Both the position numbers and the translations under genes were made by a program. A stretch of 64,000 bases of DNA from Octopus vulgaris (lineage: Eukaryota), in contig OX597814.1 in NCBI GenBank assembly GCA_951406725.2, positions 31,062,001-31,126,000 of the forward strand. The letters are read 5' to 3'. Positions 8,290 through 64,000 of this stretch are shown piece by piece (the stretch's first letter is position 1; the number at the start of each line of letters is the position of its first letter). The notes under the pieces are model-generated. The model had not been told where the DNA came from. It saw only the letters and a program-made list of their open reading frames with translations, and made no database searches.

Positions 8290-8755
8290 TAGTTTTTTTA
8301 TCCCCATTTAATAGTGGATGTAATGTTAGAACACAGAATACTGTGATATTTCCCAAGAGAGACCTCACAAATGGACTTGTGGTGCATATAAACACTTATG
8401 TTTATATCGCTATGGGAAGATAATCATCCGCCATCACCACTGTATCTACCAGATCATGTGATTTCGGCGTTCCTTGGCTAGCCCATTTGTAATAAAAGTG
8501 CTTCATTAGGTACTGAGATTCTATGTATATCGCTAGTGGAGGAATCACTGCTACCTTTAGCTTTTTGGTACGAAAGATGTACGAAAACACTTGATCTGGT
8601 AGTCCCTGCGGAGATGGAGGATGATAACCTCCCACTAGCGATATAAACACAATTGCATATATGCTCTGAAAATCCATATGAGAGGTTTTCCCATGGTAAT
8701 TATCGCAATATATACTGTGTTCTAACCCCCCCTTTGAAGTGGGGATAAATATAAC
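8290..8755. mobile_element. Old fold-back element (~170-bp diverged arms) with a degenerate hammerhead motif
   Basis: 8290-8460 aligns with the reverse complement of 8587-8755 (tatcccca, gttagaacacag, gtttatatcgcta, ctaccagatca). Minus strand 8513-8447 reads tac-CTAATGA-agca...cgcc-GAAA-tcacatga-TC-tggta. Confidence 0.65.
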
Positions 8756-9026
8756 CTTACGTGTGTGTGCGTATATGTATATATATATATGCATGTGTGT
8801 GTGTGTGAGCGTCTGTGCGTATATATATATATGTATATATATATATTTATATATATATATATATATATATATATATATATATATATAAATATATATATAT
8901 ATATATATATATATATATATATACAAATTAGTAAATTATTTACTAACTTGTGTATTTTTCCCTCACGGGCTACTTTTTACTGGAAGGCAATACTTTGTAT
9001 TGCATTACTGATATATATATATATAC

Positions 9027-9738
9027 TCAACTAATAAGGGTGAGAAAATTGGATACTAATTTAATAGCACCATCCATTTAACACCAAGTGGCTTAGTGCA
9101 TAAAAACCAGGAGTACAATAAATATTATACGTAAATATAAGAGAGTGACCACCATGTGGTCGACTCTAGCACTAAAAATAGATCCGCTGGTTTCAGCCAC
9201 GAAGAATTGTTTCCGATGAAACTTAGCACAACTATTAGCGTAAACGAACAGGACAAATAAAAATAATAAAAATGCAGATTAATTCAGGACAATTGTTTCG
9301 CTATTAATAAATTATGTAATTTTACTCACATAACGTATCTGTAGCTCCTCGGCTGAATTTGTCTAGAATACAATTTACTCAACCGCATGCCAGATTTTAC
9401 CATAACGATAAACACACATGCGGTTCAGTCGATTGCATTCGCCGTTATAATTCAAGTGCCCCCGCCAAAGTCCACCAACATTTACGGAAACAGGTACTAC
9501 ATCAAAAATTAAATGCAGTATAATTACAATCAACTAATAAGGGGGAGAACATTGGATACTAATTTAATAGCACCATCAATTTAACACCAAATGGCTTAGT
9601 GCATAAAAACCAGGAATACAATAAATTTTATACGTAAATATAAGAGAGTGACCACCATGTGGTCGACTAAAAATAGATCCGCTGGTTTCCGCCACGAAGA
9701 ATTGTTTCCGATGAAAGTTAGCACAACTATTAGCGTAA
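9027..9738 (-). mobile_element. Non-autonomous Penelope-terminus/retrozyme-like element with ~210-bp direct repeats
   Basis: 9027-9243 is nearly identical to 9530-9738 (8-nt indel, a few SNPs); a hammerhead lies in the unique spacer; TA-rich tracts on both sides. Confidence 0.8.
9281..9359 (-). ncRNA. Type I hammerhead ribozyme motif (U4C core variant)
   Basis: Minus strand: aattcag-CCGAGGA-gcta[38 nt]tagc-GAAA-caattg-TC-ctgaatt; 7-bp stem I, 4-bp stem II, palindromic stem III, GUC site. Confidence 0.8.
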
Positions 9739-9779
9739 TATATACTCTTTATATATACATCTATATATCTATCTATATA

Positions 9780-10135
9780 TACTTTTTTTATTGTTTTACT
9801 TCTTTCAGCCATATGACTGCGGCCATGCTGGAGCACTGTCGAACAAATCCACTGCAGTATTTATTCTTTGGAAACCTAGTACTTTCGCTATCAGTCTCTT
9901 TCGTCACACCGCTAAGTTACAGGCACGTAAACACACCAACATCGGTTGTCAAGTGATGGTGGGGGACAAACGCAGACATAATTACATATATATATATATA
10001 TATGCGACTGGCTTCTTTCAGTTTCCGTCTACCAAATCCACCGAGAAGGCTTTTTGATCAGCCCGAGGCTAAAGTAGAAGATACTTGCCCAATGTGCTAC
10101 GTAATGAGACGGTAACCAAAACCATGTGGTTGGGA
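9780..10135 (-). mobile_element. SINE family A (head-truncated)
   Basis: Reverse-complement match to 7441-7887 (gactgcggccatgctggagcac, ttccgtctaccaaatccac). Confidence 0.88.
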
Positions 10136-10502
10136 TATTTTTATCAACCTCGAAAGGATGAATTTTGATCACGGTCAAATTTGAACTGTAGACGTAAGGA
10201 CGGATGAAATGTCGCCAAACATTTTGTCAAGCATGCTAACAGCTCTGGCAGCTCACCAAATTAACGCCGTCAATAATGCTGATAATTCTTTTTTTCGTAT
10301 TAGCACAAGTCCTGAAATTTTGATGGAAGGGCAACTTGGTTACACAGATCCCCCGTGTTCGACTGATACATATTCTATTGACCCTCAAAGGAATGCAAGG
10401 CAAACTCAACATTTGTGGAATATGAACTCAGAACGCAAACACAAACGATATGCCGCCAGGAATTTGTCACGCATGCTAAGGTTTCTGCCAGCTTGCCGCC
10501 TT
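10135..10502 (-). mobile_element. Two adjacent degenerate family B SINEs
   Basis: tttgaact/atgaactcagaacg B-box and ctgccagcttgccgcc head on the minus strand. Confidence 0.75.
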
Positions 10503-10504
10503 AT

Positions 10505-60659: not shown

Positions 60660-61235
60660 CTCTATCTATCTATCTATCTATCTATCTATCTATCTATCTA
60701 TCTATCTATCTATCTATCTATCTATCTATCTATCTATCTATCTATCTATCTATCTATCTATCTATGTATGTATGTATATATGTATGTATCTATGTATGCA
60801 ACTATGTATGTATGTATGTATGTATCTATCTGTCTGTCTGTCTGTCTGTCTGTCTATCTATCTACCTATCCACCTGTCTGCCTGTCTACCTGACCACTTG
60901 TCTGTTAGAAGAAGAAGAAGAAGAAGAACAACAACAACAACAGTAATAACAGAAGAAGAAGGGGAATAGGAGACGATATAAAAGTTGATGAAAATGAGAT
61001 GAGGATGAAGAAGAATGAGAAGAACAAATGAAAAGTGATGTAAAAGAGGAGCTGAAGAAGGAGAATGATAATAATGATAATGATAATAATAATAACAACA
61101 AAAACAACAACAACAATAATAATAATAATAATAATAATAATAATAACAACAATAATAATAATAATAATAATAATAATAATAATAATAATAATAATAATAA
61201 GAAGAAGAAGAAGAAGAAGAAGAAGAAGAAGAAGC
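60660..61235. repeat. (TATC)n/(TATG)n/(TGTC)n followed by (GAA)n/(CAA)n/(AAT)n arrays
   Basis: Directly visible. Confidence 0.97.
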
Positions 61236-62057
61236 TCGCTTCTACAGCACATGTTCCCGGGTTCAATCCTCCTGCGTGGGGCCTTGGATAGGTGTCGGAG
61301 TGACCAAAGTCTTGTGAGTTGATTTGGGAGGCGGAAACTGAAAGTGTGTGTCACTTGGTGTCTGTTGTGTTTGTCTCGCTTGACAATCAGTGTTTATGTC
61401 CCCGTAACATAGCAGTTCGGCCTAAGAGAACGATAGAATAATTACTAGGCTTAAAATAGAAGCGCTGTCTGTGGTCGATTTCTTTTACTAAAGGCGATGC
61501 TCCAGCATGACCACAATCAAATGACTGCGTCAAGTAAAAGAATAAATGAATATTTATATGATCCTACAAACATAGATATAAGCTTTGATATACACACGCA
61601 CACACTCCCATACACATCTCTGTCTGTCTGTCTGTATGTTTCTCTTTCTCTGTCTCTGTCTATCTTTATCGCTCTCTCTCTCTCTCTCTCTCTACACACA
61701 CACACACATTCATCTAAACCTCTAAGCCCTGCGAATATTCGTACTGTTTATTTATATGCCATTAGAGCAATTATTTTCAAGCTGTATGTATATTTCGCTA
61801 TCTTATTACAATGAATCTCAACTTTACATATATATTAATCATAATCTTTTTTGATACTATTTGTACGTAAAATATGTCGCTTTATGTCCATAGACTGTTT
61901 ATTTACATTTTCATATACACACACACACACACACACATACACACATACACACACACAAACACTCTCTCACACACACACACACACACATACACACATACAC
62001 ACACACAAACACTCTCTCACACACACACACACACACACACACATATATATTTACTCA

Positions 62058-62553
62058 TTTACTCTTTTACTTGTTTCAGTCATTTGACTATGGCCATGCT
62101 GGAGCACCGCCTTTAGTCGAGCAAATCGACACCAGGACTTATTCTTCGTAAGCATAGTACTTATTCTATCGGTCTCTTTTGCCGAACCGCTAAGTTATGG
62201 AGATGTAAACACACCAGCATCGGCTGTCAAGCGATTTTGAGGGTGGGGGACAAACACAGACATACAAACATATACGCACACACGCACACACACACACATA
62301 CACACACACGCATACACACATACCCACACATACACACACACACACACACACACACATATATATATATATATATATATATATATATATATATATAAACGAC
62401 GGGCTTCTTTCAGTTCCCATCTACCAAATCTACTCACAAGGATTTGGTCGGCCCGAGGCTATAGTAGAAGACACTTGCCCGAGGTGGCACGCAGTGGGAC
62501 TGAACCGGGAACAATGTGGTTCGTAAGCAAGCTACTTACCACACAGTTACACC
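62058..62553 (-). mobile_element. Full-length family A SINE
   Basis: Complete reverse-complement copy. Confidence 0.94.
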
Positions 62554-62824
62554 TATCTATAAATGTGTGTGTAAGTATTAGTAAATGGGGGGGGGGGTCA
62601 TGAAATTCGTAAGAATTCTAGACTCACAGGAGGCATAGAAAGGGCAAGCAATTCAATGAATCCAAAATATTCCACAGAAACTGAGAATCCATCAAACACA
62701 AAGTATAAAATAAAACAAGTAAAAGAATGAAGATAGTGGTATCGCATTTAATATCCAGTCAGGATCGTTTGAATAACTGGCAATACACTTGAATTATTTA
62801 ACATGCTGTAGCATATATATATGT

Positions 62825-63075
62825 GGAGGCGCGTGGCTTAGTGGTTAGGGAGTCAGCATCATGATCGTAAGATTGTAGTTTTGATTCCTGACCGAGCGAC
62901 GCGTTGTCTTCTTGAGCAAAACACTTCATTTCACGTTGCTCCAGTCCACTCAGCTGGCAAAAATGAGTAACGCTGCGATGGACTGGCGTCCCGTCCAGCT
63001 GGAGAACACATACGCCATTGAAACCAGGAAACCGGGCCCATGAGACTGGCTAGGCTTTAAAAGGACGCATTTATT
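62825..63075 (+). mobile_element. tRNA-derived SINE (family D-related head)
   Basis: GGAGGCGCGTGGCTTAGTGGTTAG A-box, B-box-like gttttgattcc and CORE/V-like TTCTTGAGCAAAACACTT. Confidence 0.82.
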
Positions 63076-63817
63076 TATTTTTTTAATATATATACATACA
63101 ATAATTAAGTAAGTCCTTGAGATATAAAAATGAAATCTACACCTATAATTTCATCATGACTTTCAAAACGTGGTTGTACAGATGGACAAACACAGTTAGA
63201 TATAAAAGTAGTGTGAGGGGTTTAAAATTGCTTAGCGAGAAATTAAGTAGGCTGGCACATATAAAGAGAACACAAAGTAAAGAATTACATAAACTACAAG
63301 ATAATATCACTTGTGTTGTGAAGGTCTCTAGTTACAAGTAGGTAAAATGATGGATTTTGCTGTTAACAGACTGAGAAGAGAGGAAGTTATTCATATTCAA
63401 GTAGCAGCCTGTACAGCAAATATTTCCCAGAGAGAAATTTATAAGCGAATAAGAACAACACCTACAATAACACCAAACGAACAAAGAGGAGAAAAAAGGG
63501 AGAATAAAGAGGAAGGGAAAAGGAATGGGAGTGAGAGAAATATGTGAGAATTCAACTATGACAAACAGAAAAATACAAATATACATTCGCACTTACATAT
63601 ACTTATCAAGTTTTATTAACCATTGAAAATTTATTAATTGTATTGTTACTTAAGCTATTGTGAGAAGCACGCGTAGATTCATTGTAAATATACATGCTAC
63701 ATCGTGATATATTAAGGCTGAACACTTACTACCAGGATATTTAAAAAAAAGTGTTCGTACCTCTATAGGTATGTATGCATGTATGTATTTATTTATTTAT
63801 ATATTTATTTAGGTGTG

Positions 63818-64000
63818 TAGGGAGAATTCACAAAAAAAGCAAAAGACGAAGACACGTGGTGAAGTGAAGAAAACAAACAGATGTATTAGTTTAACGCTCG
63901 GGAAATGAAAAATTCTTTAACGTTTCGAGCCTACGTTCTTCCACAGAAAGGAACACAAAATGAAACGAGAAGTGAACGTAAAGAATGTGTAGTTGCTAGC
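63818..64000 (-). mobile_element. Third copy of the 26022 family, hammerhead-like motif at 63915-63950
   Basis: Minus strand: cttt-CTGTGGA-a-gaac-gtag-gctc-GAAA-cg-TT-aaag. Confidence 0.72.

What the first reader, a model, noticed from the sequence alone, without database searches (positions are those of the whole stretch)
8447..63950. Dense population of ORF-less hammerhead-ribozyme mini-elements docked at (TA)n microsatellites
Seen: about 14 loci from roughly 10 otherwise dissimilar families carry complete, variant or half type I hammerhead motifs (8447, 9281, 16700, 26114/30633/63915, 37293, 37725, 40223/54970, 45350, 47030, 52355, 53657, 58861/58928). The motif reads stem I-CUGANGA-stem II-GAAA-short, usually palindromic stem III-UH-stem I. 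The tail runs ~40-260 nt from the cleavage site to an end that usually abuts (TA)n/(TG)n. Established: Penelope-like elements (PLEs) carry minimal type I hammerheads in their terminal repeats, with palindromic stem III thought to allow dimeric cleavage; non-autonomous hammerhead retroelements (retrozymes) exist in animals and plants. Inference: this is a large, diverse, microsatellite-targeting ribozyme-retroelement system at about one locus per 5 kb. It is probably mobilised by PLE RT/GIY-YIG, remnants of which lie in this window, and the ORF track cannot detect it.
Basis: partly seen in the sequence, partly recalled or inferred. Interest (0 to 1): 0.88.

Follow-up and report, generated by a model that had tools for sequence, protein, structure and literature searches.

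The report
Penelope ribozyme ends, some spliced
These short repeats are real but mostly decayed hammerhead-ribozyme motifs at the ends of Penelope-type jumping genes and their protein-free passengers, a known kind of element, yet one family has copies with introns precisely removed, which likely means such elements can be copied from spliced RNA although they are known for keeping their introns.

Summary
The hammerhead-like motifs are real but mostly damaged here: 2 of 16 coordinates have an exact CUGANGA; 2 pass a strict descriptor (shuffles 0). Genome-wide: 22 intact motifs in 720 kb (shuffles 0.6), 17 of 22 with (TA)5 within 200 nt downstream (background 16%). The 16 coordinates are 14 insertions of 12 families, not one kind. 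C (53657) and D (26114/30633/63915) are ends of ORF-bearing Penelope-like elements (PLEs); E and H are truncated ends of longer elements; A, B, F (probably G) are ORF-less 350-506-bp permuted units, i.e. retrozyme-like. Copies span the uncut ribozyme site, mostly end at two fixed points and often carry inversions, all PLE signatures. PLE hammerheads, (TA)n targeting and retrozymes are published. The new part: the 53657 copy is the precisely spliced form of family C's terminal repeat. Two GT donors join one AG acceptor just before the ribozyme, and 4 of the 12 best endonuclease hits also lack an intron. Papers seen describe PLEs as intron-retaining and leave a sense versus antisense template open. 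Several high-copy families carry fixed core variants. Cleavage is untested.

The parts
53623..53883 (+). Family C: spliced retrocopy of the terminal repeat of an ORF-bearing PLE. About 25 nt of exon 1 joined at 53647|53648 to exon 2 with a canonical type I hammerhead (core 53661-53667, predicted cut after 53698) and tail, between (TA)n runs
9016..9738 (-). Family A: ORF-less ~505-bp unit present as 1.43 copies; complete hammerhead 9281-9359 with U4C core (family majority CUGAGGA)
37130..37412 (-). Family B: part of an ORF-less ~485-bp unit; canonical core, stem III imperfect in this copy
54683..55181 (+). Family F: ORF-less 357-bp unit with an inverted partner; family core UUGACAA (U3-A8), this copy G5C
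40038..40335 (-). Family F, second insertion; stem II disrupted
8297..8749 (.). Family G: head-to-head inverted pair; the 8447 arm keeps only the 3' half of the ribozyme; family core UUGACAA; 332-348-bp partial tandems elsewhere
26023..26200 (-). Family D: 5'-truncated 3' end of an RT/GIY-YIG PLE; family core CUGUGGA, here C3A
30542..30720 (-). Family D: same insertion as 26023-26200, copied by a segmental duplication
63820..64000 (-). Family D, independent insertion; stem II mismatch; runs about 13 nt past the window end
45255..45468 (-). Family E: 5'-truncated end of a long CA-rich element; family-fixed core CCGACGA; parent ORF not found
37657..38570 (-). Family H: about 0.9-kb truncated end; family core CCGAUGA with an extra G before GAAA; stem I broken in this copy
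47016..47150 (+). Family J: copy truncated inside the core, between (TA)n runs; fuller copies read CUGAUGA, CCGAUGA or CCGACGA
16605..16870 (-). Family L: U3-A8-type hammerhead; upstream 133 bp 77% like 21789-21917 in the 3' region of the PLE remnant
58820..59020 (.). Family I: inverted pair with a hammerhead-like 3' half and a non-canonical CUUGAAGA 5' half
52150..52375 (-). Half motif (GAAA-CAGCUG-UA-stem I) with a tail; only one tail homologue among my loci; family unresolved
22409..23774 (-). Broken PLE RT/GIY-YIG ORF remnant (N-terminal part duplicated at 27755-28336)
25444..25575 (+). GIY-YIG remnant of another PLE (duplicate at 30005-30136)

Best explanation
The loci are 3' ends of many Penelope-like element (PLE) families plus ORF-less 350-506-bp units, and they were likely inserted by PLE reverse transcriptase and endonuclease, which would nick AT-rich or (TA)n DNA and copy an uncleaved sense RNA starting at one of two internal points downstream of the hammerhead. 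Shown: family structure, two fixed 3' ends in A, B, C and F, 5' truncation, head-to-head inversions, target-site duplications, (TA)n adjacency, ORF parents for C and D, and precisely intron-less copies in C. Inferred: which PLE mobilises each ORF-less family; that the ribozymes cut as dimers or with protein help and are not needed for the insertion step; that family C has an internal promoter inside its long 3' intron, which yields a short spliced RNA copied as ~250-bp minis such as the one at 53657, while read-through RNA is copied either unspliced or spliced. Spliced copies lose the sequence upstream of that exon and would be dead ends, so intron retention in this family would be a matter of selection, not of mechanism.
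For: Two 3' ends per family relative to the predicted cut: A +164-167 (13 of 30 rows) and +265-275 (12 of 30); F +175-183 (21 of 30) and +220-237 (9 of 30); B +151-172 (22 of 30) and +247-255 (4 of 30); C about +114 and +180. This matches the two internal RT starts that make the PLE 'tail' (PMC11167929). More than one unit long: A 16, B 11, F 7 of 30 rows; longest ATG ORF 41-43 aa. Non-microsatellite TSDs flagged in 10 of 30 F rows. No pile-up of 5' ends at the cut site: D 0 of 38, E 0 of 18, H 1 of 12 within 5 nt, as reported for an anole PLE. ORF parents: D, RT and EN 1-2 kb upstream; C, 820-860-aa open frames flanked by hammerheads, with Atlas look-alikes at 0.95-0.98 that include GIY-YIG and RVT_1 clusters. 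Splicing: donor 2 (AG|GTACGT) lies 1.1-1.3 kb upstream of the acceptor in 3 of 30 intron-query loci; 27 of 30 best hits to the window copy have the exact join and keep only 10-34 nt of exon; donor 1 (TG|GTAAGT) is joined to the same acceptor in 4 of the 12 best EN hits, with 6 unspliced, 1 interrupted and 1 other junction; two of these joins have 1 nt of microhomology; linked variants occur in both spliced and unspliced copies. 20 of 27 spliced minis carry an adjoining inverted arm. Compensatory stem I changes in A and B.
Against: No autonomous partner was linked to A, B, F or G, and no ORF was found for E, H, I or J. Pfam, NCBIfam and PDB gave no RT or EN match for the family C ORF; Pfam GIY-YIG matches for D and the window remnant are below cut-off. 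Only 11 of 30 F rows and 17 of 30 B rows abut (TA)n. Family hits were chosen by queries that span the ribozyme, so spanning is partly built in, and the spliced-to-unspliced ratio is unknown. The donor-2 join has 4 nt of microhomology in the window's subfamily. The transcription start is inferred from 5' ends only. PMC3846280 found no cross-mobilisation between PLE types in a rotifer. Only 2 of 8 window motifs fold better than shuffles.
Confidence: 0.75

Rival explanations
1. For the ORF-less families the template is a ribozyme-cut, re-ligated circular RNA that a PLE RT reads for more than one round (the retrozyme model).
For: Permuted inserts of 1.0-1.8 units. L334 has the donor-1 spliced junction in both terminal repeats, as one spliced circle read 1.1 times would give. 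Circles are reported for coral, mussel and axolotl retrozymes (PMC7229834, passages). Stems are kept by compensatory changes.
Against: A partial-tandem transcript gives the same permuted products. Only one array (2.8 units) was seen among the A loci. High-copy families carry cores expected to be slow (PMC3088659). Ribozyme mutants did not impair insertion in vitro.
Confidence: 0.25
2. The intron-less family C copies come from DNA-level deletions or RT template switches at microhomology, then amplified, and not from splicing.
For: The donor-2 join in the window's subfamily has a 4-nt microhomology. L332/L335 shows another deletion that does not end at the acceptor. No RNA evidence was obtained.
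Against: Two different consensus 5' splice sites join the same pyrimidine-rich AG acceptor, in at least three subfamily backgrounds, twice with 1 nt of microhomology. The donor-2 exon with a GT donor is conserved across subfamilies.
Confidence: 0.07
3. The (TA)n runs are not pre-existing targets but are made or lengthened at insertion from short AT-rich nick sites.
For: Copies in non-repeat DNA have TSDs that start at short AT-rich words (L004 and several F rows). The downstream excess (17 of 22) exceeds the upstream one (8 of 22).
Against: Many inserts have long (TA)n on both sides. (TA)n is a published target of Neptune, Naiad and Hydra PLEs (PMC8557442).
Confidence: 0.15
4. The motifs are chance matches in AT-rich, repeat-rich DNA.
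For: A loose descriptor gives only 11 hits against a shuffle mean of 5.6. Most window copies miss a core base.
Against: 22 against 0.6 in 720 kb. Family majorities restore complete motifs with covarying stems.
Confidence: 0.02

Closest known systems
Minimal type I hammerheads of metazoan PLEs (Cervera and de la Pena 2014, PMC4209133; abstract, results and discussion read)
   Same: Thousands of single motifs per genome in many families, mostly truncated PLEs; extra base after A9; palindromic stem III; U3-A8 variant; inverted pairs 100-700 bp apart; intron end at helix I in Drosophila virilis Penelope.
   Different: Here whole high-copy families are fixed for U4C (E, H), A6U with H17=U (D) or CUUGAAGA (I), and intron-less genomic copies are common in family C.
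Non-LTR retrozymes (PMC7229834, passages; bioRxiv 10.64898/2026.07.22.740005, parts 1-3 of 5 read)
   Same: ORF-less, low-GC units of a few hundred bp with one type I hammerhead, proposed to be PLE-derived and PLE-mobilised.
   Different: Families A, B and F occur mostly as dispersed 0.6-1.8-unit inserts, many at (TA)n, with PLE-type tails, inversions and TSDs, which is direct structural evidence of PLE-type insertion; long arrays and circular RNA were not shown here.
Anole Poseidon PLE in vitro (Frangieh et al. 2024, PMC11167929; parts 1-2 of 4 read)
   Same: AT-rich nick site, two internal RT starts giving a tail, uncleaved RNA as substrate, no ends at the ribozyme site.
   Different: Here ORF-less passengers show the same two-end pattern, with tails of about 48-110 nt instead of 30-40.
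Intron-bearing Penelope of D. virilis and Adineta PLEs (PMC2377424, PMC3846280, PMC8557442; passages)
   Same: Promoter and intron in the terminal repeat ahead of the ORF; N-rich stretch in the ORF.
   Different: These papers describe intron retention and discuss an antisense template; family C has precisely spliced copies, both short and ORF-bearing.

Membership tests
Type I hammerhead ribozyme | Core C3U4G5A6N7G8A9, G12A13A14, A15.1-U16.1, H17 | tested here: inconclusive
   Met by family majority in A (21 of 29 parsed), B (24 of 29), C (28 of 30) and by some J copies. U3-A8 covariant in F (UUGACAA 26 of 30), G (7 of 11 parsed, 25 loci) and L. U4C in E (27 of 30) and H; A6U in D (26 of 28); not met in I.
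Type I hammerhead ribozyme | Stems I and II around the core, kept by compensatory change | tested here: met
   A stem I A-U to U-A in 5 rows (3 loci) and A-U to G-C in 4 rows; B C-G to U-A in 6 rows and A-U to G-C in 2. D, E, F and H are too uniform or too decayed to show double changes. No tree-aware control was run.
Type I hammerhead ribozyme | Self-cleavage after H17 | not testable with these tools
   No assay; only contigs, no raw RNA reads.
EN+ Penelope-like element | Single ORF with RT and C-terminal GIY-YIG endonuclease | tested here: met
   Met for C (820-860-aa frames with RT and YIG-type motifs read by eye; Atlas; no Pfam match) and D. Absent by nature in A, B and F; not found for E, G, H, I, J.
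EN+ Penelope-like element | Partial tandem (pLTR) with hammerhead, inverted 5'-truncated arm, optional tail | tested here: met
EN+ Penelope-like element | Insertion bias for (TA)n or AT-rich DNA | tested here: met
EN+ Penelope-like element | Introns retained in genomic copies | tested here: not met
   Family C has both forms: 4 spliced and 6 unspliced among the 12 best EN hits, plus spliced minis. This is a described property of PLEs, not a strict criterion.
EN+ Penelope-like element | Clade (Neptune, Nematis, Hydra, Poseidon) by RT phylogeny | not tested
   No reference set was on hand.
Non-LTR retrozyme (families A, B, F, G) | ORF-less unit of a few hundred bp, GC under 50%, one type I hammerhead | tested here: met
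   506, 485 and 357 bp; GC 0.34, 0.35, 0.45; longest ORF 41-43 aa. G unit 332-348 bp from self-matches only.
Non-LTR retrozyme (families A, B, F, G) | Tandem arrays with at least two complete ribozymes | tested here: inconclusive
   One 2.8-unit A array and several 1.6-1.8-unit copies among 30 rows per family.
Non-LTR retrozyme (families A, B, F, G) | Expressed as linear and circular monomer RNA | not testable with these tools
   No run on record as RNA was listed (queried with family C only).

The most novel reading that the evidence does not exclude
Family C shows that PLE reverse transcriptase copies spliced sense RNA in vivo, as promoter-initiated ~250-nt minis and as ORF-bearing units, so the intron retention that marks PLEs comes from selection for a promoter held inside the intron and not from an antisense template. 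The same machinery drives a swarm of ORF-less ribozyme units whose cores can drift to slow variants because cleavage is not needed for insertion.
Probability: 0.55. Interest if true: 0.72.

Novelty: new variant of a known kind. Interest (0 to 1): 0.52.

Why it matters
The population itself is an expected kind of element, though large: about 85,000 intact-looking hammerheads by extrapolation from 22 in 720 kb. What matters more is mechanism. PMC3846280 left open whether PLEs keep introns because they copy an antisense strand or an unspliced sense RNA, and PMC8557442 calls the significance of intron retention unknown. Precisely spliced copies, many with the head-to-head inversions used to argue for an antisense template, point to a sense template and make the question testable in one young family. 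The ORF-less units with PLE tails, inversions and TSDs tie retrozymes to PLE insertion by structure rather than by co-occurrence. The family-fixed core variants are a natural series for asking what PLE hammerheads are for.

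Tried and rejected
Rfam at E up to 10: the 150 rows shown of 392 are microsatellite-driven miRNA and Pestivirus UTR matches, with no hammerhead; 242 rows were not shown. Loose descriptors are barely above shuffles, and a relaxed scan printed nothing. 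Sequencing runs: no RNA holder listed; contigs of four runs cover the family C tail but cannot show strand, splicing or cleavage. No read-level test of the splice junctions was obtained. A peak of 5' ends at the cleavage site was looked for and not found; the apparent family C starts at +9 to +18 are largely alignment drop-off between subfamilies. A parent ORF for E was not found within 1.5 kb upstream of 20 long copies; one inverted RT/EN fragment in L391 is unlinked. PLE fragments near L003, L085, L208 and L214 lie in the flanks and were not taken as partners. Pfam, NCBIfam and PDB gave nothing for the family C ORF. The CUGAUGA at 56706 and 42755 does not close a hammerhead. The TSD script also flags TA-derived words in family A, so only L004 is counted as clear there. 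Two look-ups of earlier scan findings returned nothing. Literature searches for spliced or intron-less PLE copies and for hammerheads in octopus found no report. Lunse et al. 2017 and the Terminon paper were not held, Arkhipova 2003 was seen only as a citation, and no supplements were read, so variant cores or spliced copies may be described there.

Full report
Setting. The window is G000:C1:31062001-31126000 of a 2.8-Gb animal genome, rich in (TA)n and (CA)n. No call established the host; octopus papers were used as the nearest comparison from recall.

Observation. Only 2 of the 16 coordinates have an exact CUGANGA, but all show the 3' half of a type I hammerhead. A loose descriptor is barely above shuffles (11 against 5.6). 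A strict descriptor with four cores, three of them chosen after seeing the families, finds 2 in the window against 0 in 30 shuffles and 22 in 720 kb of evenly placed samples against 0.6 (12 canonical, 4 U4C, 3 U3-A8, 3 A6U). That is one per 33 kb, the same as the window, so the window is ordinary; one per 5 kb counts decayed and half copies. (TA)5 follows within 200 nt in 17 of 22 sample hits (random positions 15.7%; upstream within about 300 nt, 8 of 22) and in 11 of 16 window coordinates.

Families. Genome searches gave 209-3055 first-look candidates per query, which are not copy numbers; 10-30 loci were examined per family. The 16 coordinates reduce to 14 insertions of 12 families. A (506 bp), B (485 bp) and F (357 bp) are circularly permuted units without ORFs; 16, 11 and 7 of 30 rows exceed one unit, a few rows being the same locus. 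G shows 332-348-bp self-repeats in 5 of 25 rows. D is the end of a PLE: L120 and L111 carry RT and GIY-YIG sequence 1-2 kb upstream. E and H have a fixed end and variable 5' truncation out to more than 2.5 kb and 0.9 kb, with no ORF found. L shares upstream sequence with the 3' region of the PLE remnant at 22409-23774. J, I and the 52355 motif remain unlinked.

Ribozyme. Family majorities restore complete motifs: canonical in A, B and C; U3-A8 in F, G and L; U4C in E and H and in 8 of 29 A rows; A6U with H17=U in D; CUUGAAGA in I. Stem I shows compensatory changes in A and B. U3-A8 is a published active covariant, and U4C is reported to lower activity strongly in vitro while still allowing viroid infectivity (PMC3088659, passages). 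Only the A and B window copies fold better than shuffles (z -4.5 and -3.5; 2 of 8). Cleavage was not tested.

Insertion signature. A, B, C and F each have two fixed 3' ends, matching the two internal RT starts that produce the PLE tail (PMC11167929). Many inserts have a head-to-head inverted arm. TSDs are visible where the target is not a microsatellite (10 of 30 F rows). Complete ends are followed by (TA)3 or more in 14 of 15 E, 8 of 10 H and 10 of 17 D copies from loci fetched for other reasons, and in 22, 17 and 11 of 30 A, B and F rows. 5' ends do not pile up at the cleavage site. I infer target-primed reverse transcription of uncleaved RNA by PLE proteins; a circular template remains possible for A, B and F.

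Family C. The 30 best hits to 53657 split into 27 with one 5' sequence and 3 with a pyrimidine-rich AG before the ribozyme. Searching with the latter gave long copies, 3 of 30 of which reach a GT donor 1.1-1.3 kb upstream whose exon is the 5' sequence of the 27. The window copy is therefore exon joined to exon at 53647|53648. The 27 keep 10-34 nt of that exon and never more, as expected of a transcription start (inferred). Upstream of one long copy lies an endonuclease frame, whose relatives include 820-860-aa ORFs flanked by the same ribozyme. A second donor about 200 nt after the stop codon joins the same acceptor in 4 of the 12 best endonuclease hits; 6 are unspliced, 1 is interrupted and 1 has another junction. 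These joins occur in three subfamily backgrounds, and linked variants are shared by spliced and unspliced copies, which argues for repeated splicing rather than one founder. 20 of the 27 spliced minis have an adjoining inverted arm. The donor-2 exon lies inside the donor-1 intron, so spliced copies lose what lies upstream of it. Against this reading: there is no RNA evidence, one join has 4 nt of microhomology, the queries bias the counts, and profile libraries do not recognise the ORF, whose identity rests on motifs read by eye and on Atlas look-alikes.

Comparison. The passages seen describe PLEs as retaining introns and leave antisense versus unspliced sense templates open (PMC2377424, PMC8557442, PMC3846280). 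Five searches found no report of spliced genomic PLE copies, but key papers and all supplements were not seen. An octopus repeat annotation lists active Penelope-like families and does not contain the word ribozyme in its main text (PMC13282606, passages).

Verdict. Real and mostly known; the spliced copies and the fixed core variants make it a new variant of a known kind. Interest 0.52.

Noticed in passing
window 23193-27718 and 27755-32222: A 4.5-kb tandem segmental duplication at 98% identity that doubles PLE remnants and one family D insertion.
   Followed up: partly
window 7423-7895, 9736-10133, 34581-35076, 39634-40052, 42885-43259, 52916-53354, 53876-54344, 58299-58720, 62043-62561: A very abundant ~450-bp SINE-like repeat with an internal (TA)n or (CA)n tract; no hammerhead found in it.
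   Followed up: no
window 56630-56900 (-): A multi-copy element ending at (TA)n with CUGAAGA, CUGAUGA and GAAA words that do not close a canonical hammerhead; 4 relatives among my loci. It could be a core-only or unusual ribozyme end.
   Followed up: partly
L334 (G000:C10:100765500-100775499): Both terminal repeats of an ORF-bearing family C copy carry the donor-1 spliced junction, giving a compact 2979-bp unit, a hint of a circular or doubly spliced template.
   Followed up: partly
L333 and L336 ORFs: The family C protein has a long asparagine-rich stretch between RT and EN, like that described for rotifer Penelope ORFs.
   Followed up: no
family J copies in L222, L318, L360: Near-perfect palindromes all centred on the same short word about 15 nt upstream of the core, which suggests a fixed inversion point.
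   Followed up: no
family E copies L384-L401: The element carries more than 1 kb of internal CA/CATA-rich sequence, so it spreads microsatellite-like DNA itself.
   Followed up: no
L291 and L131 flanks: Two family C copies found by chance begin with sequence resembling the donor-2 exon of other subfamilies joined to the acceptor.
   Followed up: partly
window 18698-19840 and 50348-51480: A 1.1-kb repeat pair at 81% identity, not identified.
   Followed up: no
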